Source: Ramazzottius varieornatus (lineage: Eukaryota; Animalia; Tardigrada). From it: 64,000 nucleotides of DNA. The stretch covers positions 879,226 through 943,225 of the forward strand of contig BDGG01000013.1 of assembly GCA_001949185.1 (NCBI GenBank), written 5' to 3'. Numbering within the stretch: the first letter of the stretch is position 1; the number at the start of each line of letters is the position of its first letter. The translations under genes were made by a program, and so were the position numbers. The notes beneath the pieces were generated by a model. That model ran no database searches. It had not been told where the DNA came from and was given only the letters and a program-made list of their open reading frames with translations. This document shows, one piece after another, positions 1 to 38,019 of the stretch.

Positions 1-473
1 AGAATGGACCTGGAAGAATTTGACCATTGAGAAAGGTACCACCATTGGCATCCCCATCTACGCTCTGCACCACGACCCCGAGTTCTGGCAAGACCCGGAG
101 ACTTTCGATCCCGACAGGTTCTCCGAAGAGAACAAGCACAAAATTATACCTTTTACGTTCCTGCCTTTCGGCCAAGGACCACGCAACTGTGTGGGCATGA
201 GGTTAGTGTTGTTCTAGGGGATCTTTGTCTTGATCGACGGATGGGGTTTGTCCTTTCCAGATTTGCCATTTACGAGATCAAGATGGTAATCGCGAGCCTT
301 CTCCAGCGATATAGGCTCATCCCGTCCTCGCGCACGGTAGGTCGCGTTGCAACACAAGGTATGATCCGTTCATGGGATCATATTCTTTGTTGTAGACTCC
401 ACCAATTGTCCAAGATCTGGGCCTCATCACGCCAAAGAACCCTTTGTGGATCAAACTGGAGAAACTCGATTAG
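1..473 (+). CDS. Cytochrome P450 (clan 3, CYP3A-like), copy 1, 3' end only
   Basis: PERF-like FDPDRF and heme motif FGQGPRNCVG. GT-AG introns 202-260 and 337-395. Last exon TPPIVQDLGLITPKNPLWIKLEKLD ends with TAG at 471-473. Confidence 0.93.
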
Positions 474-2936
474 CTTTGAGCAACCTAAAAAAGCGACTTT
501 CTATTGCTGAAATGTAATGACATACTGAGCAAAATTGTATCCCAATGTTATTTAACATTGCGCAAAAGCTGCAGAAACGGGGTTTTTAAGAAGTAAGAGC
601 AGAAACCTACAGCATTACGAATTTCAGGAGTCGCCCATGTTAAAAAACTGCAGATGCCCGATAGTCCAGGCGCTGAACTGCTGTGAGGAACTTAATCAGC
701 TTTCCTGCCACTGCCAAAAATGGCTGCACCATTCACGGTAAAGGGGTATTTCTGCAACTACGTTTTAATTGGCGATCGACGCTTCCGGTCGCGCGCCAAC
801 ATCGGAGAAAAACAGCAATAAAACGTCAGAAAAGTAGAATTATCATAAAAAACCCACAGATCTAACAATACCTTCACAATATACCGAAACAACTATCAGT
901 AACATTTCAGACAGCAACAGCAGCAGCTAACGCCTTTGCCTTTCGCTTCTTGCGCAGGCCGGAACTATGGTTGGCGATACTCTTGTTGATTTGGGCTTCT
1001 TTCGGGATGGGAATCTTTTTCCCCTCACAGAACATAGGGACCATTTCTCAAAAGGAACAGATTATTGGTGCTTGTCAATTAAAATGAGCTGAATAATAAT
1101 TTGATGGAATAGTGGTCTTTATTTCACTTAGAAATATCAGTTAGTCGAAACATATGCGTATGTATTTATTATAGCTAACAGCTAATTGCCTTAGAAAGTC
1201 TTACCATCACCAGCTACTCTAATGCATTCCATGGCATATTCTCGTCGACTTTAGCGTTGAGAGCCTCCTTTTCTCCGCAAAAGTTGTGTTCACCGCCTAT
1301 CCTAGTGAAAACCTCAGGGAAGAAGGCCTGTTGTTCCATTTGACGGTGCATATCGATCCAACCGTTTGCTCAAGCTCGTCATCCACGGGAACGTACCACG
1401 CAGCGTTTGCTACTTGAACCTTTGGAGGATGCTATGTGGAGATAAATTATCAGAGCAGGCGCTGGCTTGTCCATTCTTTTGTAGGGAAACTTAAGGAAGA
1501 AAGCTAGAGAAGAATGGGAAGATCAAGAGCGAAAGGAATAGCAACACGAACGAGCTCCAACTGACGACACTAAAATGCAGTAACTGCAAAACGCTCAGTG
1601 CCAGGACCGTTTATATTGACCAGGGTGCATGATCTTATCATGGTACTAGCTGCTGCTTAGCGAATCTCATCCAACGTTGATCTTCCTAGTTCTTACCCAA
1701 GAACGACTCAACAGAGGCTCGCTTTTATACGCACATGTTTTTACTGCGTTTCCGTTTTGGGCTGCAGATGTCACACTGCGACGTCATCGCATTACTTTAT
1801 GATTATTAGACACCAAGTTCGGTTCCGATCACGGAAAAATGGGATCCTTAAGAAGAACGTAGGTAGTATTGATGTGTATCGACGTGACTTACTCATATCG
1901 CTACACAGCAGACACTTAAAATTTCGTTCATGATCGGTTTCGTAAAAAGGATTTACCGTGTATTAATTACCTCATTGTTTATCAACTGTGCTGCACACCA
2001 GCAGGTGTCCAGTCGGTATCAACTAAATTATTTGACAACTGCAGAAATTAACTAAATTAGTTAACTAGATTATTTGAGAAGTACAGCAATTCTGACCATC
2101 TATATTAGTGGGCCCAATAGTTCTTCGCCACGGATGGCACTCCTCTTTCATCGTCACTTTCAAACTCCCAAGCTTCTACTTGCTGAAATAGTACAGAAAT
2201 TCCATGACAGAAGTTCTTCACAATTTCAGCGGCCATGGCTGCAGTTTCTCGGCGATTCTGTAGCCTTGGCAGAACTTCAGTAACGGTTCTACAGTGTAGA
2301 AGTTCTGCCTAGGCGTGTTAAATAGCATTGGGATGTCGGTTTTTGTGACGTTCTTCCGCGCAGTAGTCTGATTTTTGCTGAGAAAGTTACATGATCCTCC
2401 ATGCGAGAAACAGAACCAGATTGTAAGTTTAGGCGGGGAAGCCAGTTTCTGTAAGTCGAGAACTCGATTGTGTCTGAGCAGCTATTGTGCCCCACCGTGT
2501 ACCATCGGTGGTGCGTCCTGCAGAAATTTTCCAATACTTACAAACACATGAATACGTTGACGGTACACCGTAAAGCCTAACTAATGGAGGGTTTCTCGAT
2601 ATGGAAACCCATACTCGTATCCACTATCTAGCTATTTGTGTACCACGACATACAGTAAACGTGTACTCACTACTCACTTGTCAATACGCTGCGAGCAGTA
2701 CCGTAAAGCTGCTGAGTCAGCTGTTGCCACTGACTCAGTCTTACCGATCGAAGACTTTAGACGACTGTAAACAAGAAAGAGAAAGCTGCTTATCAGCAAT
2801 GCAAGGTATCTCTTTCGAGGTACGGCAACATATGCGAAACTTTCTTGTAGACTATGTACATGCATCCATCTCACTTTCCAGGGAACAGTCAAGAGAACAA
2901 CCTGGCCGACTACTGGAATAGTACGGTAGTGGGAAA

Positions 2937-5681
2937 ATGTTGATCTGGATTGTCACTCTATTTCTGGGGCTGGTTGCATACTCCGTCTAGTAAGTGGACG
3001 ACGCGAATCGATAGGGAAAAAGTTCCGTACCGCTTGCATCGGTTGTGGAAATGTTCGTTACTTTTTATCCTTTACTTGTATGTTTCAGTACAACGATTCA
3101 GAATTATGAGTACTGGAGAAAACGCGGTATTCCGGGACCTCGCCCCATGCTTTTCGTAGGGCAGATATGGAGGATCGGACGGGTAAGAGGATATTAGAAA
3201 ACGGGCTAGAACTCCATAATTAGTGCAAGCTATTGAATATGCAGATGGGATTTGGGCAATTCGATCTTCATTACATCAAGAAATTTGGTCGAGTGTTCGG
3301 GTGCGCGGTGCAACGCCGAGTCAACTACGGAAAGACATCATAAGTTATATGGCTTGCTTGACCGCAGGTACTATGATCAGAAGCCTGCGCTTCTTGTGGC
3401 TGATCCAGGTACTGCCCATTCTTGAATCGTCCTACAGACTGACCATGTAACTGGCAAGTTCTAAAATTGACCATGACTAGGTATGCTGAAGGAAATTTTG
3501 GTCAAGGACTTTTCAGTCTTTGTCAACCGCCGAGTATGACCTCTCTCCTTTATATTAGCTTTGTGGCAGAATCAGCGTTACGCCTTAGCCTACCGTACCA
3601 TCTTCCGCGAACTTTACAAAACGGCTGTGTTTCAGGATTTCGACCTACAGGGTCCCATTATGAACTTGGGACTTTTCTCCCTTCGAGACCACCAGTGGAA
3701 AGTTCGTCCAGATCGTTGATGACACTGAGAAAAATATGGTTAAAAATATATGAGCGATATAATTTTTAGAACGTTCGAACCGTCATTGGACCGGCCTTCA
3801 GCTCTGGAAAAATGAGACAGGTTAGCCGAAGAGGCTCCTCCATAGACAAGCAGTACCTTACCAATCCTTCATGAATGAGCTGTACTTATGTAGATGGAGG
3901 CTCTGATTGTTGACTGCTGTAAAACCATGGACGGTCATCTCGAAAAGACGGTAGAGAAGGGAGAAGAACTAAATTTCGAAGGGTATGCTTACCGCACTTG
4001 TACGTACTGTAATGTATATATATCCACCGATACGTAACGAAAACGGCTTTCAACGCTCTTTCCTCTGAAGATTCTTCAAGGCTATTTCGATGGACGTTAT
4101 CTGTTCGACGTTCTTTGGTACGAAAGTGGACTCGCAAAACAATTCGGACAATGAATTGATCAAGAACGGCAAGCAGGTGTTCGAGGTGTCTGCTACTAAT
4201 CCTGCGTTTCTAATCGCATGTGAGTTCCTTCCCCTAAGACTTGCCAAGTTCGCAGTTGCGCTATTTCTGAAACACAGATTTCCTGATGTACATGTAGTCC
4301 TGGCACCTCGTCTAATTCCGATTGCAAAGTGGATGGGCATACAGATGAGTCCAAAACGTCCGTTGAACTTCCTAATCTCCACGATGAAGGATATCCTACA
4401 CATGCGTCGTACTTCCGGACAGGTATATATTTATAACAGTCATAAACAGAGTGTGAAGCACCGGATCGAATCCTACTGCAGCAGACTAGCAGATCTGCAG
4501 AAGATCATTCTATTTCACTTCAGGTCCGTCGAGACTTCTTGCAACTGATGGTCAAGGCTCTAAATGAGAACGAGACTTGCAAACCTCAAGCTCATTCAAA
4601 ATCGTCAACTCGGTTTGCGAATGATCAGGTGTCGGAGGAGGATGAGAACGGCCCGGATGTCCTCTCTGATGTTCTTACATCGACCGAAGTCCCAGCTCAG
4701 TCGGGCGGTAATCGGCATGCTCAACTAACCAATCGAACACTGACCCTAGACGTAATGCCAATAAAATATTGGAAGAAAAATTAATATGCTGCTGTTCGAG
4801 GTCCAAACTGGTATTTTGTAGGAGGTGCTGGCACAGTCGATTATATTCTTCATTGGGGGTTTCGAGGTACCATATGCAGGCAGTCTTCATTCCTCAGAAA
4901 CATGACCGTGAACTGATCCCTTCTCGTAACAGACTACGGCAGCGACCCTGACTTTCATGGCGTACCACCTTGCCACTCATCCCGATATTCAGGAACGCCT
5001 GCGCAAGGAAATCGAGCAGGTCATCGGTCTAGACGGCGAACCCACTTACGATCTCATTGCCCAAATACCCTATCTGGACCAGTGCATCAATGAAACGCTA
5101 CGAATGCATCCTCCAGCGACACGTACCGAGAGGGAGTGTAGAGAGGAGTGGACCTACGCGAACTTGAGGCTAGACAAGGGGACCATCATCTCCATCCCTA
5201 TCTACGCAATCCAACACGACCCCGAATACTGGCCTGAACCTGACAGATTCAACCCTGACCGGTTCTCCGAAGAAAACAAACATAAGATTGTTCCCTTCAC
5301 CTTTCTGCCTTTCGGACAAGGACCGCGTAACTGCGTCGGAATGAGGTTTGCCGCCTAGAATTTCAGAACGATTACTGTACTTTCTCCAGAAACTGATTTC
5401 CGATGTTTTTTCCTAGATTCGCGATTTACGAAATCAAGATGGTCATCGTCAGTATTCTAAAGCGATATCGCATGGTTTCTACTTCCCGTACCGTAAGTTT
5501 CCGGTTAGGCGTAGATTATTGATATACTGTACCAGCCAATGTTAGTGTTCGTAGCAATCCGTTTGGGAAACGGTTCCCGAAATGAAACCGCAAATCTTTT
5601 CAGGTCATGCCAGTGACACAGGATGTTGGGCTTGCCATTCCAAAGAATCCATTATGGCTTAACGTGGAGCGGCTGCGGTAA
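2937..5681 (+). CDS. Cytochrome P450 (clan 3, CYP3A-like), copy 2, multi-exon
   Basis: ATG 2937 with hydrophobic anchor MLIWIVTLFLGLVAYS, then YWRKRGIPGP, I-helix GGFE/TTAATL split by an intron, ETLR, FNPDRF, FGQGPRNCVG. Stop TAA at 5679-5681. Confidence 0.92.
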
Positions 5682-9584: not shown

Positions 9585-10026
9585 TATGGTGAGTCGCGCG
9601 ATTCAAAAGTCCACAGTACTTTTACCGCGGGTGCATGCGCGGAGAAACTGACTTTATCGGCGCATGCACGCGCGGTGAAATGCCTTTCTCCGTGGTAGTA
9701 CGCGCGGAAAACCTCGACGTTGTCCGCGGGTGCATGCGCGGATAAAAATACCTTACCCGCGCGTGGATGCGCGAAGAAATTCCATGCGCGGGGAAATACT
9801 TTATCCGCGCGTACACCCGCGGATAAAGTGAGTTTCACCGCGCAAGTGCCCGCGGATATGTAAAGACATTTCACCGCGCGTGCATGCGCCGATAAAGTCA
9901 GTTTCTCCGCACATCCATGCGCGGAGAAACAGTTAAACCGCGCATGGATGCGCGGAAAAAGTATTTCACCGCGCATGCACCCGCGGTAAAAGTACTGTGG
10001 ACTTTCGAATCGCCCGGCTCACCATA
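9585..10026. mobile_element. Non-autonomous DNA transposon with TATGG termini and 6-bp TSD (IS3EU-like)
   Basis: Long imperfect TIRs tatggtgagtcgcgcgattcaaaagtccacagtacttttaccgcgggtgcatgcgcgg / reverse complement at 9970-10026. TSD gcaacg at 9579-9584 and 10027-10032. Internal gcatgcgcgg repeats. Confidence 0.82.
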
Positions 10027-13600: not shown

Positions 13601-15461
13601 TTCAAGCCAAACACATAGTCTCGCTACCATATCTTAAGGTCAGTCTTCATTCAGCTCAAGGCCAAGTTGCGAGATGAGTTCCCAAGAAAGAAAGAGTACC
13701 TAATAAAGTAATGACCGAAGTGTGTTCCGTACTTCCGTTTGGGGCGGACGGGTTCCCAGAGTGCACTTTTCTCAACCGGCGCATACGTGGTCGAGCGCAT
13801 GCTGTGCGCCCGTACATAGGTGGCTGATGAACGCGCAGAATTTTGGACTTAAAGTGTTCAGACGATTAAATTTCATCCTTAGTTGACTGATCTCGTCAGC
13901 ACTGGCCACTGTCAACCTTCCTCATCTCTCCTCGCTCTTTCCCAAAATCTTTCAAACGTTGTCAAACTTCGAAGAAGTCTGGGGGAACAACCCATTGACA
14001 GAAACGCAGACTTTGCTGCGCTGGATGCTGTTCTCTTGTTGCGGGATTCTACGTCTTTCGGATGTTGCTGGCTGCACCCGGCGGTAAGCAAAGCTCGATT
14101 AACTTTTTGAGCTGTCCGCTGGGCGCTGACGCCAACTAGGGATACCCAAGAAGATTTCGTTGTCAGACCTCAGCCAAGAGGATGTTTAGCATTTAGTTGC
14201 TGTTTGAGCACCTGTTTATTCGAACAGACTGAAAGCAGGGAACGAAAGCCTTCCCTTCCGATAGTTTTTGTTTCCAAACGCACCAAAGAAGCATGGGATT
14301 GTTCTTTAGCTGTTTGAATCTGTTGCGAACACAGGATATCAATCTTCCCGCGAAAGTCCAACGCTCCATACTGCAGTGGACATCGAAAGCTAAATTGATG
14401 CGTAACTGAATGTTTTAGTCTTCAGGTGGGCAGCTGACATCAGGACGAAGCCACCATCCAGCTGAACGAGACAGGATCAGGCGAGAGCGGCGGAAAGAGC
14501 TGTGGTTCTGGGAAGGGTGGCCGGAAGTCTAGGCTAAACGGGATAACTGAGTAGGCGTGAAAATGAACATAAGACAACTTATGATGTGTTTCCAATTGAC
14601 GCGACTGACTGTCAGACTGTCATGTCGGACCACCATCTGACATGACAGCAGTGTTGAACAAGTACTACCTGGAAGTACAGGTACTGGTGGCTGAGGCTTA
14701 GGTACTGGAAAAGTATTACCTAGGTATCACCGGTCCGATACTTAGGCCTGAGCTATGGGTACCTGTACTTTACCTGAAAAGTAATACCGACACTTTGTTA
14801 CCACACCCGGCCACCGACTTGGTCCGATCTTTCGACCAAAGACCGAACCAAGTCGGTCGTGTCGATCATCACTCCGGGTGGACCCAATCATCAATCCGAG
14901 TCCATCCCGACCATCAATCAGGGTGAGCCGGATTATCAGAAATCAATGAAGGTCAATCGAAGAATCAACTAAACAAGAATTCAAACGTCAGCAACAAAAA
15001 AGTTCAGGCAATCAATCGAAGAAGAAATTCAACGCCCATTCGATCAATCAAGCATTCAAATGCAGGTTTTGATTGATTAATTGGCTGGACCAAAACACAC
15101 ATGTGCTGTGCACACACGTGCAATTTGGTAGACTCGTAGTACATATTGCTACTAACACCCAGGATCCCCTAGTGCGGTGTACACCGAGCCTATGATTTTC
15201 TTTTCTTGGGTTCTGGTTGCAGACGCAGTGAGAGTTATGGTTACCTGGTCTGGGCCATCTGGTGGTCTCATACGACCAGGCGGTCCGATTGATTCGCTGC
15301 AAGGTCAGACAAGGACGAGAACCTTTTTTGCAACGGTACTAAAACAGCAAATATGCTTTGTTAGTTAAGTTCTCCAGGTCTTCTTACACTAGGTTGATCG
15401 CAAAGCACTCGCCCAGAATCACTATGGTTCGCTGCGTTGCCCAGATTCGCCCAGAATCACT

Positions 15462-16565
15462 ATGGTTCGCTGCGTTGTCTTACTTTTTGTGGCTTTTTCT
15501 GCTCAGCTGGTGGGCAGTGTTCCGGTTGTCCCAAGGCAGAACAGGCTGGAGGAAGTGGGTCAGCCCATCATGCAGCCGGAAGATCTCTTTGAGGGAGACA
15601 TGATGGGCATCGACTTGGAACTTCTTAAGACGCCTGAAGGAATGGTGACTTCCTACTTATTCTCTCAGAATCTCTCTGGCAACCCTACAAAGCGCGTCGT
15701 TTCCGATTTCGCACGACTTTCATTTATTGACGTCCGTGAAATTTTTCGCAGGCCGAATTACGTAAAGTTCGTAAAGGCTGATGTTCTGCCAGAACCAACT
15801 TACATGCTGGCAGACTACGTTCCAGCTGGAGATGATCCATTCGAGTTCGACATTTCAGAGTAAAATTGTCCTTACCGTTTGGCTGTCATTGATTGTTGAT
15901 AAAGCAGTAAAGCATCTGTAATTTCCGGTCGGACATCATTTACTGTGCACGTGGTCAAGTGCGCGACAATTTGGTAGCACTACAGTAATACCGCGTGGAG
16001 ACACTATTGCTTTCAGAACGTAACCCTAGCACACACAATAAAGCAATCAAGTCTGGAAACGAGTCGGGAAGATTTTCCGACACTGTGCATACACCGAAGA
16101 ATGTCAAATTAATGTCCTATAAATACCCTATCTACCACTCGAAAGGGAATGTTTGACAAAAATTCGACTACACATCCGTAAATCGGACGCTTCTCCTTCA
16201 TTTTCCACGGAGAAAAAGCTTGCTGTGGATCATATCTCTCCGTAGTACGCCCGACACCCTTTCTGCTCGATTTAGCGACCACCTGGTCAAAGCTGCCGGA
16301 TCAAGCCAAATCATGCCACTGAAGCAGTGAGGGGTTCGGGCATGCTTTCGCAGGCCAGTGAGGGTCACAAGTCGTGTGTAGTTCCCTGAGCAATCAGTAA
16401 AGAACTACCGATTCTAACTAGCTACAATTTTGCTCTTTTTACAGGTTGCCTCTATAACGGAATTGTTGTCCACGAGCTTTTGCACGCTGTTGGCTTTCTT
16501 CATGAACCGTCGCGCACTGATCGTGACATCTACGTTGACATAAACTGGAACAACATCAAAAAAAG
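15462..16565 (+). pseudogene. Astacin (M12A) metalloprotease, truncated/degenerate
   Basis: Signal peptide and pro-peptide LFEGDMMG. Exon from 16445 reads [38 protein letters not shown] (HExxHxxGFxHExxRxDRD). No Met-turn exon found; middle exons are disrupted. Confidence 0.82.
15948..15987. repeat. Solo end of the MITE family seen at 28745-28898
   Basis: cacgtggtcaagtgcgcgacaatttggtagcactacagta nearly identical to 28861-28900. Confidence 0.7.
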
Positions 16566-17128
16566 CAAGACGACGTTGCCATGAAAAGTCGCCGCATTTA
16601 AAATAGGAGGAGTTGTGCACGCGCTGGGTATAAGTGCAGCTAATGACTTGCCCGTGCACACGTTGAGTCATTAAACTGAGCTGTGACTCATATAGCCCGT
16701 ACCACTCAAGCGTCTCCTCGATCGAGTCGCGCATCCTGTTGGCTTACGGTTCCTTTTATTGCGCCACTGCACCATTACTCACTGCTCTAGTGAACTCGCG
16801 CACCGAGAAGGCTTGAGCAGTCTTCAAAGTCTAAAACATTCACCCGTTAACCTGCGTAGGGCCTCCCGATTCAATTCGACATTGCTGTAAGGGGACCGTT
16901 TTAATTACGAAAAGGGTTATATGTGTGAGAAGAAACTAACCTCGTAAATATTCCGCCATCAATAGCACTTCACAGGTGAAACCAGCTTATTTTATAGCAA
17001 AATAACGAAAAAAATCCGACTCTGGTGATATGACAAATTCAAAGATTTTCGAACTGTAGACAATATACGCGGATGAACTAAAACGGAAAGGCAACAATTT
17101 TTCGGTGGTACAACAGAACAAAAGCTAG

Positions 17129-17676
17129 TTAGGAAGAAAATCGACCTTTAGGCTTCCTGAAATTCGGCGGCAGCTTGGCCTTTCCTCCCTTCTTGCGGTC
17201 TCCACTACCAGCCGAGGCTTTCTCACCCTTGTCCTGAGCCATGGCCGAGTCTCCAGTCTTCTTGGGTAGAAGCGTACGTGCGATGTAGGTCAAGACACCA
17301 CTTTGAGCGATGGTCACTCCATATACAAGCTTGTTCAACTGCAAGTTGAACAAGGGTAAATATTAGAACAAATCCGGTCAACCGTTAGACCGGGTATATG
17401 TTGATTGAACTGAAACTAGCCTACCTCTTCGTCGTTCCGGATGGCGAGCTGCAAATGACGGGGAATGATGCGAGACTTCTTGTTGTCGCGAGCAGCGTTT
17501 CCAGCCAACTCCAGGACTTCGGCAGCGAGGTACTCAAGGACAGCAGCCAGGTAGACGGGAGCACCAGCAGCAACCTGTTCAGCGTAGTTTCTTTTGCGGA
17601 GCGTTCTGGATCGATCAACGGGCAACTGCAGTCCAGCGCGGCTGGATCGGGACTTGCCTTCTCCGCGTCCACTCAG
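17129..17676 (-). pseudogene. H2A: Histone H2A, intron-containing, with extended basic C-terminal tail; probable pseudogene
   Basis: SGRG...[12 protein letters not shown]...[47 protein letters not shown] | LNKLVYGVTIAQSGVL...LLPKKT. Intron ~17339-17424. Start codon position is CTG, and the VGRIHRLL segment is shortened. Confidence 0.85.
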
Positions 17677-17925
17677 GATGAACAGCGAAATAAGATCGCA
17701 CACCTAAAAGAAAAGAGCAGCAGCAACCGCGAAGAGGACAAAATTCCAAAAATTTTGAAACTAAATTTTTCATCCGCCGTTGGCAAGCTGTATGGCACAA
17801 ACCTCCACGTCACCATGCCGTACATAGGTGAAGTCAGCTGAATCATATCAGACACTGCGAACAAGTTGGTGATTTATTGATTGGTTGTTGTGATCGAGAA
17901 TAATACATTTTTTCATAGCGTGGGG

Positions 17926-17995
17926 CGACCGGCATCCGCTAAGTCCAAAGACTCACCCAGTCCTCGGCGCGTGCAGCCGCCAGTCGGAGAGGACC
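17926..17995 (-). ncRNA. Candidate HDV-like self-cleaving ribozyme
   Basis: Minus strand: P1 GGTCCTC/GAGGACT (G1-U wobble), P2 CGACTGGC/GCCGGTCG, P3 GGC/GCC, L3 TGCACGC, GG(G) for P1.1, P4 TGAGTC-TTTG-GACTTA, J4/2 GCGGA(T) containing the catalytic C. Elements are in canonical nested double-pseudoknot order. Confidence 0.72.
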
Positions 17996-18141
17996 ATGCC
18001 GCCGGTGCACCCTTTACACAATATTTCTATATTAAATTTAAATTCACTACCTACAGCACCGGCGCCCGGGTGGGACCAGAGAACTCTTGCACTTTGTTCG
18101 GATCAGAGTGCATAAGTTTTCCAGATCCACCCGAAAGGTAA

Positions 18142-18272
18142 GGCTTTCGCCCCTCCTTTCCTAGAGCTCAGCTTTCGCTGAACCCTTGATTGTTCTTTCT
18201 GTGGGGCAGGGCTTTCGCCCATCCCTTTTGCAATGTTCAACTTTCTTTGAATTTCATTCCTTCTGTGGGGGC
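18142..18272 (-). repeat. Two ~68-bp imperfect tandem repeats carrying GC-stem GAAA tetraloop hairpins
   Basis: Plus strand ggctttcgcc (18142), tcagctttcgctga (18168), gggctttcgccc (18209); ttctgtgggg occurs twice. Confidence 0.6.
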
Positions 18273-18302
18273 CTATGATTTGATAAGTCTGTTTGCAGTA
18301 GT

Positions 18303-19885
18303 CTAAAATAGGATAAAAAAGTCAGTACACTCTTTAAATATAAAACGCCTGATCACATCGTTAGAGGACCTGTCTCTAACATTAAAGCAAAACGACATTA
18401 AACACGCTATGTTCTTCTCAGTCAGCTGACCTCGCCTCGGTCCAAGAAACGTATTCATATAGCTGAAACCTCTTTCTACCTCAACTGAATTAACGGTTAA
18501 CCAGATGTTGAGTAACGCCACCTTTGAGAGGTTCGGAAATTCCACCGTCATTTCCTTCCAGTAACCACCTAAGTCGACGATCTCTGGCTTGTGATGTTTC
18601 GGGTGCTCTTTAATCATCCTGATGTAATCTGCCCACTCATCTGATGTCACTTCTTTCACACATTTCAAATGACCTTTCCAACGTTCTATATCTGTATGAC
18701 TGAGGCCTGAAAGCTTGTTCCTGAAGGCGATCGGACTAAAAATCTGAACGGCTTCAAGGAAGCTGGCACCAGGGTGGCGAAACATTGGATCCGTGCTTGT
18801 GAGATTCGAAAGTCTCTTCGAAGCCTTCATCAGCGCTGTTCTGAACTCTGCAAAGTCTTTGTGGACATTGTTCCACATATGTGCAAAACAAGTCATGTAG
18901 GTCGCGTTGGGAATGACTTTCCTCAAGTACAGATTGAAGGCCCTTCTGTTAGCTGAATGTCCATCGCAGACGAATTCAACGCAGTTGCTGGGTTCGAACT
19001 TATAGAAAGCCATGACGTACTTCATGAGACGAGCTATGTAATTCCCATCAATGGACTGTGTTTGAAAATCAAGATCGATGAGCATTCCCCTGGCTGACCC
19101 TTCTAAGATGATGACGGTGGACATGCAGTGCTTATGGGCAACCTTGGAAGCATCTACAGACAAAGTGAACTTATGCCTGAAAACAAACATAAGTAAGGGG
19201 CCGCCAAGATGCAACCATCACGGTTACCTTTGAACAAAACTCTTCGGCGTTCTATCTCTCCCTGGGCAAGCTTTGGTATATAATTTTTTCGTATAGTTTT
19301 GGCTTTCGGTATGCAGCCGCCACCTTCCATAAACGTGTGTAGGAAGTCTTGAAAATTGTTGCTGATCTCGAAAGCGTGACCAGTTTTCGCAAGAGAACGA
19401 ACCCAGCTTTCGATGATGGTTTGATTGGCCTTCTTTGGACGCATGGACCGCAAGGGCTCAACCGGATTTTTCTGTCGCTGTGCTACCATTGTCTGATGTT
19501 TCTTGGAAGCCTGGTGTCGAAGTATGGTCGCTGGAGATCTGAGAAGCACGAACATATTGCAATGCTCACAGAAAGCCTTTGATTTAGCTGGTGCTGATCG
19601 CTCAGGAGACTCCTCTTTCTGCGTTGAGATGTAGTTCGCGACATTCGCGTCATGTTTGGATGTTTTACAATGCCTCGTGACGGCGTAAGGCTGGAAGTAT
19701 TCCGTTACTTTGATCGTCTTTCCGCATGGCTTGCAGAACAAGTTCTGCTTACGCGGCGTCATATCCAATAAAACTCTGCAGGGATAATTTTCAAGGTACT
19801 CACGAGCTTTGCTTCTAGGCTCCTTTTGAGGCGTATTGTGAGGATCTGATGGCGAGCCCGTGATATCAGTTAATGCGCAAATCTA
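18303..19885 (-). mobile_element. hAT transposase of CGGBP1-like type, degenerate
   Basis: N-terminal zinc fingers LFCKPCGK...RHCKTSKH and AFCEHC...RHQASKKH; TLSVDAS, FVCDGHSAN, CFAH (CxxH); hATC dimerization region YWKEMTVEFPNLSKVALL...NSVEVERGFS. Probable intron 19177-19227 rejoins one base out of frame; TRW region appears deleted. Confidence 0.85.
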
Positions 19886-20119
19886 AAACAATATATTTGT
19901 CGGAAGAGACTGTGGGTAGTTTTCAAGACCTTACTGTTCGAGGTTCCCAGCAGAAATGAGTAATAGTTTCGTCACAGTTCACACACTGGTATGTGCAAGG
20001 AGTTGGGTGGCTGGAACTGGTTGCTGAGATCTTCCTTTTCTTAGGCTGCAAAACATTCGTGACTGTATGTAACAATACTGAGTCACCAACCATCCGCACA
20101 TACTGTCCGCCGTACATTA

Positions 20120-20740
20120 TTAATTATGGTTGCGCTTAAAAGAAGCGTAAACAACATCGCGGACCATATGAGCAAACAGAATCTTAGGCTTCTGCTCCAA
20201 AGGCCCGTTTCTCACTTGTTGAAGATGGACACCATCCATACCGGGCTGGAGCCCGGTAAGAATGAATTCACCCCCGAAACTCTCAATTAAGTCTCGCAAA
20301 TGAACATTGTACCGAGCGACAATGTGGTTGATCCGATCCGCCTTGTAACTGCTACCGACTGGCCCATACGCTGCGGTAACGGGGAAGATATCCGTGGCGA
20401 AAAGAGAGTTAAACTTGTGGCGATACTCCACAAGGAAGTCTCTTAGAGGTCTCATCATGAAGGTCAAATGGCGCTCCCACTCCTGATTTGTGAGGTGGAA
20501 GTGAGATGGATGGTTGTAGTGTTCGATAATATCATTTATGCCGAAAATGAAGATAACCGCCCGCTGGCCTACTCCCATGTCCAGGTATCTTTTTGTGAGG
20601 AAAATGGTTTCGTATGAGCCGCCTCCCGACCAACTGCTAACGAACACCGTGGACCCATCAATGCGGTTCATCTTGTATATTGATGGGCGCGCACGGGAGT
20701 CCCCAATTGCTAAAATCTGGTCCCCCGAAGTCCCATGCTC
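20120..20740 (-). CDS. SGNH/GDSL hydrolase-like ORF (5' end appears frameshifted)
   Basis: Reading upstream of the ORF-track Met gives ILAIGDSRAR (block I), then SWSGGG (block II), FIFGINDI (block III), MDGVHL (block V). Intronless. Confidence 0.72.
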   Translation of the reverse strand, partial: EHGTSGDQILAIGDSRARPSIYKMNRIDGSTVFVSSWSGGGSYETIFLTKRYLDMGVGQRAVIFIFGINDIIEHYNHPSHFHLTNQEWERHLTFMMRPLRDFLVEYRHKFNSLFATDIFPVTAAYGPVGSSYKADRINHIVARYNVHLRDLIESFGGEFILTGLQPGMDGVHLQQVRNGPLEQKPKILFAHMVRDVVYASFKRNHN

Positions 20741-21286
20741 GGCTCATTTTACGGTCTTGGTCTAACCTTTCACCGTGACTTCTTGAAGAATGGGGTCAGC
20801 TTCATACTGGTCTACATAGGGAAGCGTCTTGTAGACCGTATGAGCAACCACATAATATTCCCCCATCCAATGACCTAACATTGGGATATTGTCGGCCGGA
20901 AGACCAAAGGGCGGAAGGATGGTTTGATGATTCTGCAATTTCATTAGAATTACGTTCTTCAGTAGCCCTTTGGAGCACCCGAAATACAAGATACGGGCAC
21001 GTCTGCTGAACTTTTGGCTATTGGGAATTTGTCAAAAATTTGCGGCGGATTAAAGTTTTAAATATGTTCCGTTGGCTGACACGACGAATTCCGACCGCCG
21101 ACTTGGTGTATGGCCAAAAGTTTCACAGCATTAAGCGCCCCCGACAACATTACCATTACTTACTGCAGGTGGAGTAGGCATCATAAAATGATCACTGTAG
21201 AAAGACACAATAAATAGTTTTTTCCCGACTGTTTACTCGTGTCTGTTATGGTAGACCAGGTGGTGAAGGGCATGACATGATACAAC

Positions 21287-21622: not shown

Positions 21623-24600
21623 AATGACCCAAAATGACTTACAAACTGGCAGGGACTAAATGATCTCCCCCTTTCGAGCTTGATGAAGTGGAATATCCGG
21701 GTTCCGTCCGGAAGAGGCTGCCTTGATGTCGAGAAGAGAGGATAGCACAGGCTATCCGGCGTGGATGGTCAGCTGAAAACAGCCGTCCCGTGGTAATACG
21801 TAACTAGCAGTCGCTCGAGAAGACACGTCAATCTGTTCCGTTCTTAGTGACAACAAGATAACGTTTCAGAAGCGCAATGACGGAAGAGGAGAATCTAAGA
21901 GGCAAACTACAGTACTGTTGTACGGGAGAAAATCTCTTCGGAAAATTTGAAATTTCCCGAAAGCGGTAAATTTTTACCAGAAACGAATCAAGGTCTCCAT
22001 GTTAGGACTTCAATCAGCCGAAGACAATGTACCAACCTGATTTACTGGACTCGAACGATGAGTGCAAGCGTGGCTCGGCTCTGAGTTCAGCGAGTGTGTG
22101 TCACGAGGTTTCACTGGCCAATGTAGCAAACCACGTGACTTCGTCTTGTGCAAATCCCATCTGTAGTTTGGCATAAGTATTCATCGTGAGAGTGAGACTG
22201 ATTTCCCATGTGTATATATATACTGACGCACACTTCCTGGCAGACTCTACACGTAGCCGCACAGGCCAGCTGTATATTTCACGTAAAAGATGACTGACAG
22301 TTTCGAATTCTGTGTTCACTCTTGCCATCCAAGATGCTTTACAGCTTCGAAAATTTGTATCATGAAGTATCCCATCATTATACGGCGGACACCACTAACT
22401 TTCAGTCAGATTTGAACATCGAATGAGACTCTTAGCGATTACTGCCATTAAGCAACATGTATCATCGAGTCTGATATAGAGAGCGAATCAGTAAAATGAC
22501 GTACTGTGTAGGCATTCTGTTGATGTCGAAGAGTAACTAGACTGCTGAAGTCCCCTCGGGGCTTATCTACTTACTGAATACATCAAATCTAATCAAATCC
22601 GCAAAAGAACAATAAAATACTTTGCGGTCTTAAGAAAAACGACACTTGAAATCAGCTGAGCTTGAAGGCCGAACTCTTAGACAGTTTTTCCATTTTTACT
22701 GAACTGACGTGCACACGACCCGGCTCCCCAGTGTCCCGAACACGCAGAGCTTCCTGCATGGTCTCGCCAAACCAACGCGTAACTTGACGGCCTTGTTGGA
22801 TGTCGTTTCGACCAAACTCAGAGCTAGGCGAGCAATTTCGAAGGGACGGAGCTCTCCGTTGTAGTTCGCTAACCCGCTTGCCTCCTGCGAACGGCTCACG
22901 ATCACTGGACGCAACGGATGACAATAAGGCGAAGCACGATGGAGTAGCAGACGATCTTCTTACGCAGAATGCTCCTCCAGCGGTTTCTATCTTGCCAACG
23001 TCGAACTCCAACAGCACCTGGTCCAACGTTCTTTTCAAATAATTCGTCACCGCAATGACGTCACTTGCTGAAGGTCGATGGATCATTTAAGCCAGGTCGA
23101 GGAAATCACACAGCATAATCGTCACGCTGTCAGAATACTCCGGCTCGATCGCACGCTTTATCCGCAGCTGCTGCACAACGATGCTGAAAGCCAGACGAAA
23201 GTTTGACTATAATGTTCATCACTGGTATTGTTTGATCGGTAGATCATACCATCATACATGGGAAGTACTGTAGCTCAGTGAGTATCCTGTCCGTTATCTG
23301 CGCCTATGCTTCGATCTCGGCGGCTCACTCGGCTGCTATGCACTCCAGATCGAATGTTTGATGTGCCATCCGTCGAACGATATGCCTGACCAAGTTGGCG
23401 AACCGTGGACGAATCTCCTCCAACCTTCTTCTCGCTGTCCTCCGTAACGCCCGTTTGTTTCGGATGGAAGCATCCCGGAAGCATGGTTGTTACTTCCTTC
23501 GGTAAAATCACCCGCTCGTCCATCTTGATTGATCCATATTCCTCAATCGACCTCAACGTATCTGATAAAACCCTGATGATTTAACTGTGTACATGTATCA
23601 GAACGATATTGAAGATATTCCTTACGGATCACGGACTAGAGTGAGTCAAGGTCTACGTCATTCGGATATTGTCCCGTCAGAATTTCATAGAGGACCACGC
23701 CCACAGCGTACACATCGCAGTTAACAGTATTGCTTAGCTGCTGGAGGGTTTGGAGATTGGCGGACCGTCGATACTGTATCACCTCACCGGGTTTCCATAT
23801 CAGTTGCATGAGTTCAGGATCCAGCACAGCGGAATCACTGGTTCTGCGTAACGATGACGAGGGCGTTGTCCTATCAGCTATCTGGCTTCCGCAGCACGGA
23901 TCCGAAAACAACGCTGTTTAGGGGGTTCGTACGGCTGAGTACAGCCGGTTGTTTGTTGATTTGGTCTCACAAAAGTCACGTGATCGTGGGAACAAATGTC
24001 CGATCTTCACAAAGACGTTTGAAATATTAAAAACAGAAGAGTGTGAAGGAAGTTGTGAATTTTTGTATGAAGGTGGGGGTGGATAGATACTTATGAGAGA
24101 CAGTGTAGGTTGTTTGACGTCGGTTCATACGATACCGCAGTCAACGGAAGGAACCACCACAGTGTCTTTGGTGCCTGCAGCCAGGAGGAACAGCAAGATG
24201 AATGTGATCACAAGACTGATAGCGATTCCTTTTCCTTCCAAGCGAATAAACCCGAACGTCGATCAAATTCTGTTCTTGATCGAGCATTGCTGCGTCGGGA
24301 GACCTACCGACTTCGGAAGTCTCGCACTGATCGTTGAGGAATCCATACGGGGGTCGGTCGGGCGGCGGGCTGTTTCTATTGACCCAGTACCACAAGTCGT
24401 TTCGGATAGGTTGAAACTCTTTCATCTCCATATCGAAAATCGTGGCTTGCTGAAACAAGACACGCACAAAATAACCCCACTTTAACCGTATCCCGATTTT
24501 GTCCGTTTTGGTCCCTCTTGGATGTAATGACGTACCGCCATCGATTCAGTCATGGGGTCTTGACGCAACACGACGACCGGATTGATTTTCGACCCACTAC

Positions 24601-25219: not shown

Positions 25220-27830
25220 TCTCCAAAAAAAAACAAAAACGCAAGCCAATTTGCAAAAGCATAAAGAGGCCCGGTAGAACCAGACCCCAAAACAACGAAA
25301 CAATACAAATCCCCTAAAAATCTCGGTTATTGACATCGACGATAGAATAGATCTCCTCCAAACCTCTATGACTAGAAAAGGTTCCGAAAACAGAGGCAGC
25401 ATTACCACGTTGAATATATATACTAAGCTTTTGCTTCAAAAACGAGAGGGATCTTGTTTCGCCGGTGGCTTCTGCTATTCTTTTGCCTATCTGCTGGATA
25501 AGACTGGATGCTTCGTTCCCGAAAGGACCGAAAGTTTCGAACGCTACTGGACAGAACAGGTAACGACCATCCAGCTCGCGGTACTTGTGTCTCTTGATCT
25601 CTTCCGCCTTGTTGGCGGCATAACCAAGCTGCCCAGCTGATCCTCGCAGGTATTTTTCTGCAAAAGTGTCAACACAGGTTACATCCCAGACAAGAGCCTT
25701 ACCTTGTTGCCACGGGATGAGCGTCAGTCCGTCAAGTCGTTTCTGGTCGTCCCTGAGGATCCCGTTGGGCTCAAGGACGTTCGAGACTTTACAGCTGATG
25801 AGGGCACGGTGGAGGGAGTCATTGAGAGCGGAATGTCTAGAATGACGTCCGGCACTCAACTGACAAGACAAGCCGTGGCGCCCCAGCTCGTCGACAAGTT
25901 TTTTGCAACGACAAACAAGCGTTTAGTCATGATCTCAGCTTGTTGGCTCTTTTTCTCTAGGACCGGAGGGATCGCTTCGGGGAAGACTGGAGCTCCAAGT
26001 AGCGTTAGGGTCTCCTTGTCCGGAAATATTACGCCAGGGCAGAGGAGCTTCATTTTCTGGCGTGTAACTTGCTGTTGGGTAGGAGTACCTCCACAGACAA
26101 CAAACTCACATTTGGACGTATTGAGTTCGATGCCCAGAGAAGCGCCGATCTCCACAATGGTCTGGAAGTCCCTACTTACCAGTTCGAAGTCTCCACCAAG
26201 CGTGGCATTGTCAAGATACCATACATTGAAGGACGACTGAAGCGACTTGGACAGGTTCCGGGTCAGAAGACAGAACAACAATGGCCCTAGGAGGTCTCCG
26301 TGTTGAACCCCCCCCCCCCCCCCAACCCCCCCGGGGCCAAAGNNNNNNNNNNNNNNNNNNNNNNNNNNNNNNNNNNNNNNNNNNNNNNNNNNCCCCCCCC
26401 CCCCCCACCCCCCCCGGGCCGAAGGGATGACGTGCTCGCCGTAGATGAGATTTGTTGGCGATCTGTACATCTGAAAAATAAAAGGATAAATCTCGGGAAG
26501 GAACTTCTGGGCCTCCTCGAGTAGCCTGTCTCTGTGAACGGAATTGAAAGCATTCCTGAAGCCCAGTTTCAGCAAAGTTTGGCAGCCTAGTGGAAGGTAC
26601 TGCTGCTTCAGCGCCGCCTCTAGTGCCATAGCCGAGCTGTTGGGGTCGTACAAGCTTGCCTGTGGCTTCCATCACTCGTTTACTGACGATCTTTCCCGCT
26701 AAACGCCGAAGAGTGTTACCGACCGCAATGGGCCTTATTCACCCTGTCTTCTTCAGTGGAGCGATCAGCGAGGCACCATACAAGGCAGGGCAGACATCTT
26801 CTGGTACTTTGCCATCCAGCATCAAGCCGGCCAAGTCGGCAAGTGCTTGCGCCAGCTGTATCGACATAGGATCCCTCAGACCCCCTAGCAAGTCTTCCAG
26901 GTGCTGAAGGCGAAGACCATCAGGACCCCCAGCTGAGTCACAGGGGAAACTGCTTACAGCTGACATTAATTCCTCCGTGGTGACTGGTGGCGATGGAGGA
27001 CCAGAGCACTCTTTCGAGGGGAAATAGGCATCTTAATGTTCGGGGGGATGCTTTTTTCGCAGCTCTTCCAGAGTTGACATAGGGGCTATCACATCTTCAG
27101 AGACGAGGACCCTAACGGCACCGCTGATATCGTCGCCGTTCAACTTCAGCTCCACTCTTCTCTTCATCTGCGAGTCTTCGTCGATCGAGTTCTTCCTCTG
27201 CTTTGTATTATTGGTTTGCGTTTTCGCAGTAGTATCCACCGCTGCAGCTGGCCTAGTGATGTTTTCTTTGAGAGTGGTAAAATACTTCTTCTTAGAGAAC
27301 GGCTCTGGGAGTTTGAAAGCAACCGAGGGGAAAGTAAGTAGTTTCACATCATTCTTCCTAACACACTCTCTCAAAATATCGAGGAGGGCCGAAGATGCAG
27401 GTATTCTCGCGCCACGTGGTATTCTTTTGATAGTCGGGACAGATCGTTTGACAGGATTGACGGATCGGTTTTCGTCGTCAGCTGCTGAGGACTGGCTAAG
27501 GATGACTGTTTGATCACGTAGCTTTCTCTGGGCTTCTTGGCATGGTCTTTTTCCTCGATGCTTAGTTAGGAAACCTTCTGAGGCAGCTAAGAAGCCACAC
27601 AAGTCTCACTTTCCTTGAGATGCCATCGTGCTACAAAGAAACATACAGCAAGCAAAATATGCTCCACAAAATATCTGTCAGGCGAGGTGCGTAGGAAGCA
27701 ACCTACGTGCGATCCGGGGGAACGCGTACGTTCACCCCGGAGTCATCGTCAAAAGGCCTGAGGGAGCAACTCGTTCCTAGTAGGTCGTTTCTAGTAGGGA
27801 AGTTGAGGCGAGCGTGAAGAATAATTGTGT
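25220..27830 (-). mobile_element. CRE-clade non-LTR retrotransposon (RT plus restriction-like endonuclease), degenerate
   Basis: SAGGPDGLRLQHL, RPIAVGNTLRRL, QLGYG..GGAEAAV, FRNAFNSV, GVQHGDLLGPLLFCL, WYLDN; REL domain RHSALND...RLDGLTLIPWQQGKALVWDVTC...AFETFG...IQRGNA. Multiple frameshifts. Confidence 0.88.
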
Positions 27831-33370: not shown

Positions 33371-34716
33371 TGGAAGGAGCTTTGTTCACCGGTTGACTGA
33401 TGGAAAAGCTGGCAAGTCTGTTACGTGATCGAATAGCCTAGAGCGTCTCCTGCGTGAAGGCGATTGAAATTTCTGGAATCGGACGTCGGGTTTGGAAAAT
33501 ATGGGAATTACAAACGAAAACCATGGGGTGGCGATGCCCCGTGACAGTGACTGTAAGCTAGATTACCCATAACCGCAGACTGTGCCATAACACTGGCTCA
33601 TTTTTGTCAATCCGGCTTTTACCTGCTTCTCCGCATGATTTTGTTCTATTTGGCATATTGTAGTTCGAAAAATCATAGTTCGTACCGCGTTGGCTGGCAG
33701 AGCATCCGCGGAAGGAATCTTTGATACCCACAGTTAGATTCGGTCGTAAGAATTTCTGCACAACACTACTACTGTATTGAGAATGCATCCCTTCCCGTGG
33801 TCACGTGGTCTCATAGCATCAATCAATAGTGGCCAACGTCGCCTGACCACCTGAAGGGATGCATTTTTAGCACTGGACGTCAGGGCAACAGGAGCGCCAT
33901 CTATCAGTCTACCGCCTGAGTCGGTACTGGGTGCGCCCCTGTGGGGTCCAAAGAGTTCTGTCCAAGTGCTGTCATTACAGCGTTTAGGTGCCTGTAAAGG
34001 TCTTTGGCTTGGCTTCGATGCTCTATGTAAACGCACGAAGAGAAAGTCTGGACCGGTAAAAACAATCTGGACCAAGCGAAAACGACGGCACCGTGAGATC
34101 CAACCGTAGAAAATTGTCCGAAAGTGCATTCGGTTTCACGCAGTTCTCGACAATTTTCTACGGTTGAATTTGGCGTTGCCGTCGATTTCGTGTAGTCCGG
34201 AATTTTTCTTCGTGCGTGTACCTGAACGAACGAAGGCAGGACACTCATCTTTGTGCGCTCATTGGTCGTTCAGCAGACTTCGAGTACAAAGTTAATGAAC
34301 GTTGGGGAAAGGAGGGCGCTCCGGTTGCATTTTTGCGAGCACATGGTGGGGGAACTGGTTTGGGGCCGTTCCAGTAACTAATCCAGGTATGTAAGGACAG
34401 GCAATCTGATCAATGTTGGCTGTCTACGTTGATCATGGGGTTATCTAATCGGTCAAGTTCATACGTGAACTTCTTACTTTGGATTGCTGATACGGCATTT
34501 CTTACTGCAAATCAGCATGCTAGACCATACCGAAGTTGCACCACCAAACTCTTAGGAAGTCAGCTGATCTGGTGATTACATTCTAATACCTTTCTGCATG
34601 GTTTCCCCTTCAGTATTTTTGGGTTGTGGTTTGAAAATTCTCAGCTTCGGGACTTGGGCTGTCTATTGTATCCAGCTTGCTGCACCGATAGTTTCTGTTG
34701 GTCTATACGTTGGAAA

Positions 34717-37211: not shown

Positions 37212-38019
37212 GCTCTGCAGAAAGAATTGAAGAACTTAAGTCCAGAAAACCGAAGCCCACGGTGGCGTGAGATTGATCATTGGACTTTCGCCCGTTGTTC
37301 GTGAAAAATGCGAAACATTTCGCATGATCTTACGATCATCATCAGTGAAAGATATCAAACAGATTCTCATACTATAATACTGTACTCGCGTTCCGCAAGT
37401 ATTTGCCTTTTTTAGTGAATTCTTCCAGGTACCAGTATGAGTCTCAGAGATGATGCGCACATATACAGTGGCATCAAGAACAATGAAGGGATAAACCGGT
37501 ACGAGGTAGCCGGAATGGAGATATCCACGGAGCACTGTTTTGTAGACTTGATTGTTTGATCATAGTACGTCAAATAGGCTCTCTGACATTACTTCCGACC
37601 CACCTTCCTTCCAAGCCAGTTATCTCGTCAGCTCTGCCACCTCTGAGCTTTTGATTTGTTCTAGAAGAATGGAGACAAGTTTTTCTTGATTTAATCTAGT
37701 TTGATGCAGTATGTGTTGAGATCAGGCCTGGATATCTCCATGCCGGCTACCTCCTATTGGCATATTTCCACAGGCAGTTCGTACTTCGTCCTCTGACATC
37801 CCTGGAGCTGCGCAATCAACTATCTTATCAGTTGCACTCCCAGGCTTGCGATTACAACCAGCGGGTTTTCTCTGTTACTCCATGAAACATTTCACAAACA
37901 CCATGATCCCAGAAACCGCTATTGCACACTCGTGTCTGCCATTGAAGGCACCAGCTGTTGCTGTAGGTTCTTTCCTTGCGTAGTGCAATCAGTTCAGATC
38001 GATTGTGGACCCGCAAAGA

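What the first reader, a model, noticed from the sequence alone, without database searches (positions are those of the whole stretch)
17926..17995. Candidate HDV-like self-cleaving ribozyme
Seen on the minus strand: GGTCCTC tc CGACTGGC GGC tgcacgc GCC GAGGACT gg g TGAGTC tttg GACTTA g cgga t GCCGGTCG. P1 (7 bp with G1-U), P2 (8 bp), P3, the 7-nt L3, P4 and C-N-R-A all fall in HDV order. Deviations are a single C in L3 for P1.1 and one extra U before P2', so it may be slow or decayed. Cleavage would fall 5' of G17995: about 300 nt downstream of the transposase stop and 320 nt upstream of the H2A remnant, so it could define either a 3' or a 5' end.
Basis: partly seen in the sequence, partly recalled or inferred. 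Interest (0 to 1): 0.8.

Follow-up and report, generated by a model that had tools for sequence, protein, structure and literature searches.

The report
HDV-like ribozyme behind tardigrade hAT transposase
A tardigrade family of "cut-and-paste" transposase genes carries, after the gene and a row of predicted RNA hairpins, a sequence with the layout of the hepatitis-delta self-cutting RNA that would likely trim the end of the transposase message; this copy is probably worn out, but sister copies keep the standard core letter, and such ribozymes are mostly known from retrotransposons, not DNA transposons.

Summary
Every helix and core base is at 17926-17995 (minus). It is the only descriptor hit in the window, against 0 hits in 100 simulated 128-kb sequences and 0 complete folds among 156 viral sites with the same core. 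The host is the tardigrade Ramazzottius varieornatus.

The motif is not solitary. Contigs show about five haplotypes, none running into unrelated sequence just upstream of the cut site. It follows a hAT-family transposase gene, four hairpins (three with GAAA loops) and an 11-bp helix ending two bases before the cut. A contig chain ties it to a more distant transposase subfamily, likely the 78-80%-identical paralogues.

The odd L3 base is this copy's own: the others have U or C. At 6 of 13 variable paired sites the other allele repairs a weak pair (8% expected per site). This copy, with a frameshifted, internally deleted transposase, is probably decayed.

Best reading: the family's ribozyme makes a hairpin-protected, poly(A)-free 3' end on the transposase transcript. 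Cleavage, element ends and double compensatory changes are not shown. Six paper searches found no HDV-like ribozyme described in a hAT or other DNA transposon.

The parts
17926..17995 (-). HDV-like ribozyme core (P1, P2, P3, L3, partial P1.1, P4, J4/2); predicted cut between U17996 and G17995; putative catalytic C17938
17974..17974 (-). L3 position 2: G in this copy, U or C in the other haplotypes; breaks half of P1.1 and can pair with C17938 in a predicted misfold
17998..18066 (-). Upstream helix (18066-18056 with 18008-17998) around a 47-nt loop without any C; 10 of 11 pairs here, with G.G at 17999 where the other haplotypes have C; P(-1)-like, ends 2 nt before the cut
   Evidence: (I25)
18068..18132 (-). 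Long hairpin H4
18133..18160 (-). Hairpin H3 with GAAA loop
18164..18185 (-). Hairpin H2 with GAAA loop
18204..18225 (-). Hairpin H1 with GAAA loop (83% like H3)
   Evidence: (D8)
17873..17878 (-). AATAAA, 48 nt after P2' and 117 nt after the cut; possible poly(A) signal (use not tested)
18303..19882 (-). hAT-family transposase gene (RvY_16332): zinc fingers, DUF659-like part, hAT dimerisation domain; inferred intron 19227-19177; broken here by an in-frame loss of about 168 codons and an inferred frameshift (11 extra bases near 19286 compared with other copies)
   Evidence: (table 4)
20120..20866 (-). SGNH/GDSL-hydrolase reading frame with two in-frame stops; paralogue RvY_07098 on another scaffold; whether it belongs to the same element is not shown
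17129..17703 (-). Histone H2A remnant that keeps an intron (about 17424-17339) and lacks a start ATG; shared, with its upstream flank, by about four haplotypes

Best explanation
This is a likely decayed copy of an HDV-like ribozyme that sits behind the transposase gene of a small tardigrade hAT family and, in intact copies, would cut the transposase transcript about 307 nt after the stop codon, likely leaving a poly(A)-free 3' end shielded by the hairpins just upstream. Shown: the fold and core bases; the position behind the transposase on the sense strand; several haplotypes; canonical L3 alleles in the others. Inferred steps: (1) transcription runs through four hairpins and an 11-bp helix that ties up the 5' flank so that P1 and P2 can form, as P(-1) does in genomic HDV; (2) C17938 and Mg2+ catalyse a cut at U17996/G17995, leaving a 2',3'-cyclic phosphate on the upstream RNA; (3) the upstream RNA then ends two bases after a helix and is cut off from the AAUAAA 117 nt further on, which fixes the transcript end, stops read-through into the flank and probably lowers transposase output. 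In this copy G17974 and G17999 would weaken P1.1 and the upstream helix and favour misfolds, so it is probably slow or dead, like its transposase.
For: Fold not chance: 0 hits in 100 simulations; 0 of 156 core-matched loci complete it. 18300-17900 folds at z -6.7, 0 of 100 shuffles as good; GAAA loops lie on the transposase sense strand. About five haplotypes in 4 runs: L3 position 2 is U in all X2 and X4 depth shown and C in one divergent X1 contig. At 13 variable paired sites the other allele improves the pair at 6 (0.084 expected per site, binomial P about 3e-4; 5 of 10, P about 1e-3, without the upstream helix) and still pairs at 9. Contigs of equal depth (47.9 in X2; 9.67 in X3; 44.1 in X4) carry joints linking the end of a diverged transposase (18340) to H2, an H1/H3-type hairpin and 18073; X1 record 3 runs on through 17942. 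Paralogues at 78-80% amino-acid identity, one of whose alignments ends at 18339, fit that copy. No loose end just upstream of the cut in 4 of 4 runs; one loose end at 17916. Precedents: P(-1) activation (PMC4615214, passages); non-Watson-Crick second P1.1 pair tolerated (PMC13635239, passages); ribozymes in 3'UTR SIDER elements (PMC4035085, passages).
Against: No cleavage data. No double compensatory change is visible: 16 rows table 3 were not shown, and by their counts they are all X1 differences, mostly of the divergent copy. 5 of 15 alleles at paired sites break a pair (17979 A, 17993, 18000, 18002, 18150). The RNA-like run X1 (RNA is only a guess) holds two contigs that span the predicted cut (records 2 and 3), so uncut RNA or DNA is present; one has a damaged P1, the other (depth 3.2) looks canonical. 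J1/2 is 2 nt; in one engineered ribozyme 0-1 nt gave little or no activity and rates rose with 3-7 nt (PMC4908430, passages). A 9-bp rival helix between P1' and P4 competes in the folding model. No terminal inverted repeats or target duplication were found, so mobility is inferred from dispersed paralogues only. The link between the divergent contigs and RvY_02344/03331 rests on depth and end position. The AAUAAA is not in the copy that diverges at 17916. Haplotypes share ancestry, so the P values are indicative only.
Confidence: 0.45

Rival explanations
1. Pure damper: the ribozyme cuts the transposase mRNA off from its poly(A) tail so that it is degraded; the hairpins only steer folding and the 5' product is not stable.
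For: AAUAAA lies 117 nt after the cut. SIDER ribozymes in Leishmania 3'UTRs were proposed to act this way (PMC4035085, passages). Contigs spanning the site would fit partial cleavage.
Against: Four hairpins over about 160 nt, at least partly kept in the divergent copy, are more than folding control needs. One copy does not share the AAUAAA flank.
Confidence: 0.2
2. Passenger: the 5' head of a dead non-LTR retroposon or SINE that landed behind an ancestral transposase and was copied along; it once defined a 5' end and has no role for the transposase.
For: This is the usual setting of HDV-like ribozymes (R2: PMC3774820, passages and two sections; L1Tc/SIDER: PMC4035085, passages). All near copies seen are drifting.
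Against: No retroelement body follows: an AT-rich stretch, then an intron-containing H2A piece. No laid contig has the ribozyme with a foreign upstream flank (table 7). The upstream helix and hairpins show the same repair pattern as the core.
Confidence: 0.2
3. The ~300-nt hairpin array is a separate structured RNA whose 3' end is set by the ribozyme and which binds or steers the transposase, in the way omega-RNAs or seekRNAs serve prokaryotic transposon proteins.
For: Layout of ORF, ornate non-coding region and precise end-forming ribozyme; a variable 47-nt loop held by a helix right at the predicted 3' end (7 of the differences listed fall in it).
Against: No promoter or 5' end for a separate RNA was found. 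hAT transposases are known (recalled) to bind DNA ends through zinc fingers. The loop is AU-rich and C-free, and no target match was tested.
Confidence: 0.07
4. The HDV look is incidental; the hairpins act as DNA (for example stable GCGAAAGC mini-hairpins or transposase-binding subterminal repeats) and nothing cleaves.
For: No Rfam match. Native P3 has near-zero probability in pseudoknot-free folding. The 18140-18021 segment folds as well on the plus strand (z -4.6 against -3.9).
Against: 0 hits in 100 simulations and 0 of 156 controls. The one non-canonical L3 base is canonical in two different ways in other copies, which a DNA palindrome would not explain.
Confidence: 0.08

Closest known systems
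[quoted passage not shown]
   Same: Same nested double-pseudoknot order, G1.U, L3 and J4/2 core; multicopy; carried by a mobile-element family; decayed copies occur (the sow bug R2 case in PMC3774820).
   Different: Here it lies 3' of a DDE-type hAT transposase gene, with shared sequence upstream of the cut rather than downstream; no reverse transcriptase follows it.
Genomic HDV ribozyme with its P(-1) hairpin (PMC4615214, passages read)
   Same: A helix upstream of the cut could tie up flanking bases that otherwise pair with P2'.
   Different: Cellular and chromosomal; the helix ends at -3 instead of -18 and is preceded by four more hairpins.
CPEB3 and C. briggsae HDV-like ribozymes (PMC13635239, passages read)
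   Same: P1.1 with one Watson-Crick pair plus a non-standard pair.
   Different: In those passages the second pair is pyrimidine-pyrimidine (C:U, U:U); this copy has G opposite G and its sisters have U.G or C-G.
SIDER2 ribozymes in Leishmania 3'UTRs (PMC4035085, passages read)
   Same: An HDV-like ribozyme placed after a stop codon, with a possible role in mRNA fate.
   Different: Those are retroposon heads co-opted by host genes; this one stays with a transposase family and has its own upstream hairpin array.
hAT transposases with DUF659 and Dimer_Tnp_hAT domains (CGGBP/hAT-19-like group by recall; PMC8097297, PMC9004415, passages read)
   Same: Zinc-finger N-terminus, hAT catalytic motifs and dimerisation domain; 26-36% identity to relatives from sea urchin, fish and unnamed sources.
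   Different: No ribozyme or structured 3' RNA is described in the passages read; subgroup membership was not tested; no element ends were found here.

Membership tests
HDV-like ribozyme | Nested double-pseudoknot strand order P1-P2-P3-L3-P3'-P1'-P1.1'-P4-J4/2-P2' | tested here: met
HDV-like ribozyme | P1 of 6-7 bp opening with G1.U or G1-C | tested here: met
   7 of 7 pairs, G1.U; criteria from PMC6326823 and PMC3774820
HDV-like ribozyme | P2 of 5 bp or more stacked on a 3-bp P3 | tested here: met
   8 of 8 and 3 of 3 pairs; junction base varies C/U/A among copies
HDV-like ribozyme | L3 with conserved U...C-G (U19 C23 G24 of the descriptor in PMC6326823) | tested here: met
   U17975, C17971, G17970
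HDV-like ribozyme | P1.1 of one or two pairs between L3 and the G's after P1' | tested here: inconclusive
   One C-G pair plus G opposite G in this copy; U.G or C-G in other haplotypes
HDV-like ribozyme | Catalytic C in a C-R-R-A J4/2 strand | tested here: met
   C17938-G-G-A17935, then an extra U; not covered by the divergent contig, which ends at 17942
HDV-like ribozyme | Structure kept by compensatory changes among homologues | tested here: inconclusive
   One-sided repairs at 6 of 13 variable paired sites; no two-sided change visible; 16 difference rows not shown
HDV-like ribozyme | Mg2+-dependent self-cleavage 5' of G1, lost with C-to-U | not testable with these tools
   Only assembled contigs were offered, no raw RNA reads
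5' ribozyme of a non-LTR retrotransposon or SINE | Element body (RT ORF or shared tail) downstream of the cut; unrelated flanks upstream | tested here: not met
   Shared sequence lies upstream; no loose end upstream of the cut; one copy diverges at 17916; intron-containing H2A piece downstream
hAT DNA transposon | Transposase with hAT dimerisation domain and catalytic D, D, CxxH, E motifs | tested here: met
   PF05699 E 4e-6, above cut-off; DUF659 weak; H, D, D, C, E, R columns conserved in alignment A1; their naming as hAT catalytic motifs is recalled
hAT DNA transposon | Dispersed copies | tested here: met
   RvY_16332, RvY_03331, RvY_02344, RvY_11677 on contigs of 1.66, 9.33, 9.33 and 2.48 Mb
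hAT DNA transposon | Short terminal inverted repeats and 8-9 bp target duplication | tested here: inconclusive
   None found in the window; this copy may be truncated at 16564; no genome was held
CGGBP/hAT-19 subgroup | Match to the CGGBP1 domain model or placement in a tree | not tested
   Resemblance recalled only

The most novel reading that the evidence does not exclude
A eukaryotic cut-and-paste (hAT) transposon family makes a structured, ribozyme-ended RNA from its 3' region: either a poly(A)-free transposase mRNA capped by a hairpin array, or a free ~300-nt RNA that binds and controls or targets the transposase. The second form would be the first RNA partner of a eukaryotic DDE transposase, with an HDV ribozyme as its end-processing enzyme. 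The probability given is for the second, bolder form.
Probability: 0.07. Interest if true: 0.92.

Novelty: new variant of a known kind. Interest (0 to 1): 0.55.

Why it matters
HDV-like ribozymes in animal genomes are explained mostly as 5'-end makers for retrotransposons. A family that keeps one, with a hairpin array, behind a DNA transposase points to a different job: forming or controlling an mRNA 3' end without poly(A), or self-limiting transposase output. It would be the first tardigrade example and the first hAT link in the papers searched. The natural haplotypes (G, U or C in L3; intact or broken P1; intact or broken upstream helix) also form a ready-made series for testing P1.1 and P(-1) effects.

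Tried and rejected
Rfam: no HDV-family match at E<=5 over 16000-20000 (1 weak unrelated plus-strand match) and 0 matches at gathering score over the window. No second copy of the ribozyme or hairpin region in the window.

Sequencing runs: no RNA holder listed on record; only contigs could be laid, so RNA ends and strand cannot be seen. The window's own haplotype is missing across the cut site in X1, but also in DNA runs X2 and X4, so that gap says nothing about cleavage.

Relatives' DNA: none for the transposase in metagenome contigs or viral contigs; the 17-sequence alignment was too diverged for pattern search; the ribozyme core pattern found 0 stretches in viral and metagenome contigs. Whether hAT relatives in other animals carry the motif is therefore open.

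Element ends: no convincing inverted repeat. No acceptor explaining the short RvY_16332-3 isoform end was found between 18530 and 14000. The idea that the upstream CRE-like LINE owns the ribozyme was dropped: it is over 7 kb upstream, with a guanylate-cyclase/kinase gene piece between.

Other haplotypes were not folded as whole sequences; only single-site pair states were scored. Earlier-finding look-ups by sequence, place and the first word set were empty. Webb et al. 2009 was not held. No supplementary files were opened; ribozyme hit tables in supplements and Repbase/Dfam entries could already list this family.

Full report
OBSERVATION. The 70 bases are as described. Pair tables give P1 7 of 7 with G1.U, P2 8 of 8 with one wobble, P3 3 of 3, P4 6 of 6 with one wobble, L3 UGCACGC, GG after P1', and J4/2 C17938-G-G-A plus one extra U. 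These match the fixed positions of a published descriptor (G1-Y, U..CG in L3, C-R-R-A; PMC6326823, passages), except that the first P1.1 position is G, facing G. A loose descriptor finds this one site on both strands of the 64-kb window and nothing in 100 Markov sequences of 128 kb. Rfam has no matching model.

SURROUNDINGS. Protein hits name the host as Ramazzottius varieornatus. Upstream on the same strand is a transposase gene with zinc fingers, a weak DUF659 match and a hAT dimerisation domain. This copy is broken. About 168 codons present in RvY_02344 are missing in frame. It has 11 bases more than other copies near 19286 (table 4), which I infer puts the 5' exon out of frame with the exon after the inferred intron 19227-19177. 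Paralogues lie on other contigs: RvY_03331 and RvY_02344 at 78-80% and RvY_11677 at 91%. A search of 1.8 billion representatives gave 112 hits; beyond the three tardigrade ones the best are 26-36% identical, about 600 residues when whole. Further upstream is an SGNH-hydrolase frame with two stops and a paralogue elsewhere. Downstream are an AATAAA at 17878 and an H2A remnant that keeps an intron and lacks its ATG, so it was copied as DNA.

THE RNA IS LARGER THAN THE FINDING. The 401 nt from the stop codon through the ribozyme fold at -153 kcal/mol, z -6.7, with 0 of 100 shuffles as good. The signal is confined to 18260-18021 (120-nt windows at z -3.3 to -3.9; the 12 other windows at -1.2 or higher). 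It comprises three GCGAAAGC-capped hairpins (3 of the window's 5 copies of that 8-mer), one long hairpin, and a helix 18066-18056/18008-17998 that ends two bases before the predicted cut. The inverted-repeat scan had flagged that helix independently (I25). In genomic HDV an upstream hairpin, P(-1), activates cleavage by tying up bases that would pair with P2' (PMC4615214, passages); a like role here is inferred.

OTHER COPIES. Only assembled contigs could be laid. Matching depths and difference counts gives about five haplotypes (my assignment). W is the window (exact in X6). A has 9 differences, two of them in P1, one breaking a pair. B has 3 differences over 17949-18069 and an intact P1. C has 7. 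D has 27 differences and 4 gaps, in one X1 contig of depth 3.2, which could hold errors. L3 position 2 is U in A, B and C and is C in D. Position 17999 is C in all four, closing the G.G gap in the upstream helix. 17930 turns U.G into U-A in P2. Of 21 listed alleles between 17926 and 18225 that I scored, 6 are at unpaired sites, 10 keep or improve a pair and 5 break one; I left out the listed differences at 17916 and below and at 18235 and above, where no helix was assigned, and the indels. Per site, 6 of 13 improve a pair against 0.084 expected, and 9 of 13 still pair against 0.35 (17979 counted by its U allele); without the upstream helix, 5 of 10 and 8 of 10. A structure merely fitted to W would not be improved by other alleles, so the ancestor was better paired and W is drifting. 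The copies are related and no two-sided change is visible, so this is support, not proof. Sixteen difference rows were not shown.

WHICH END? If the motif were a retroposon head, copies should share sequence downstream and differ upstream. The loose ends are at 17849, 17916, 18187, 18204 and 18227, none just upstream of the cut, and one copy leaves the window's sequence 10 nt below P2'. Contigs of one depth carry joints from transposase sequence (18518/18733, 18781/18856, 18340) to H2, to an H1/H3-type hairpin and to 18073 (X2 47.9, X3 9.67, X4 44.1), and X1 record 3 continues to 17942. That depth is about twice that of single haplotypes, and the RvY_02344 alignment also ends at 18339, so D is likely the RvY_02344/03331 pair. 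If so, transposase, hairpins and ribozyme have stayed together across about 20% protein divergence.

IS THIS COPY ACTIVE? Probably weakly or not. Folded alone, its best pseudoknot-free form pairs G17974 with the catalytic C17938 and P1' with the P4 strand; U at 17974 would remove the first pair. A non-standard second P1.1 pair need not be fatal, but the fast cases in print have C:U or U:U (PMC13635239, passages). The 2-nt J1/2 is short (PMC4908430, abstract and passages). Against strong cleavage in vivo, the RNA-like run X1 holds contigs across the site from A (damaged P1) and from D; whether X1 is RNA is a guess.

MECHANISM. Best reading (0.45): in intact copies the ribozyme cuts the transposase transcript 307 nt after the stop and 117 nt before the AAUAAA, leaving an end two bases past a helix and behind four hairpins, that is, a protected end without poly(A). 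Rivals: pure mRNA damper (0.2), dead retroposon head (0.2), incidental or DNA-level structure (0.08), separate RNA partner of the transposase (0.07). Shown: fold, position, copies, alleles. Inferred: transcription through the site, cleavage, product stability, effect on transposase. Terminal repeats were not found, so 'transposon' rests on the protein and its dispersed paralogues.

KNOWN OR NEW. It works like, and by the testable features files as, an HDV-like ribozyme, with P1.1 doubtful in this copy and cleavage untested. It fails the test for a retrotransposon 5' ribozyme. Searches: HDV-like ribozyme + tardigrade, 0 papers; HDV-like + ribozyme + DNA transposon + hAT, 0; self-cleaving + ribozyme + hAT transposon, 0; ribozyme + Ramazzottius, 2 unrelated by listing; two broader searches, 13 listed each, none on this pairing by title and abstract start. 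Two recent preprints had no relevant passage for the terms tried. Subscription papers, supplements and repeat databases were not seen. An unchecked note of this scan reports an HDV-like motif in a Merlin DNA transposon of another genome (e1-7497013); it is a lead, not support, but suggests the pairing may recur.

VERDICT. Real feature, new setting for a known ribozyme class, decayed in this copy. Interest 0.55.

Noticed in passing
window 16564-16900: End of a higher-copy repeat: in other copies varied flanks ending in TA are followed by a shared CAGG-starting terminus (loose ends). The window lacks that terminus and joins straight onto an astacin exon, which seems cut off here. It may be this element's far end or a separate Tc1-like MITE.
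   Followed up: partly
window 15393-16581 (+): Astacin metalloprotease gene (PF01400), apparently interrupted at about 16560; a 28-nt direct repeat lies near its start.
   Followed up: no
window 20120-20866 (-): SGNH/GDSL hydrolase frame with two stops; a paralogue with a 343-nt internal deletion exists. Such esterases ride in several mobile elements (recalled).
   Followed up: partly
window 22655-23917 (-): Pieces of a receptor guanylate cyclase / kinase-like gene.
   Followed up: no
window 25317-27605 (-): Remnant of a non-LTR retrotransposon that looks CRE-like with a restriction-like endonuclease (motifs recalled; the two frames scanned gave no supporting Pfam hit); spans an N gap.
   Followed up: no
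window 51841-53125: Tc1/mariner-like DDE_3 frame (weak) between 33-nt inverted repeats at 51841-51873 and 53093-53125.
   Followed up: no
window 41097-47481: MULE/ZSWIM-type transposase pieces with 648-845-nt exact duplicates beside N gaps; may be an assembly artefact.
   Followed up: no
window 1-5500, 34700-40450, 54600-56970 (+): Cluster of about five paralogous genes, 72-78% alike, whose frames look like cytochrome P450 (recalled motif, not scanned).
   Followed up: no
window 60358-60933 and 63217-63699 (+): Two paralogous frames that look like zeta-class glutathione transferases (recalled, not scanned).
   Followed up: no
window 9585-10026: Imperfect palindromic repeat array of about 440 nt, possibly a MITE or satellite.
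   Followed up: no
window 18182-18335: One haplotype lacks these 152 nt, losing H1, the edge of H2 and the transposase stop.
   Followed up: no
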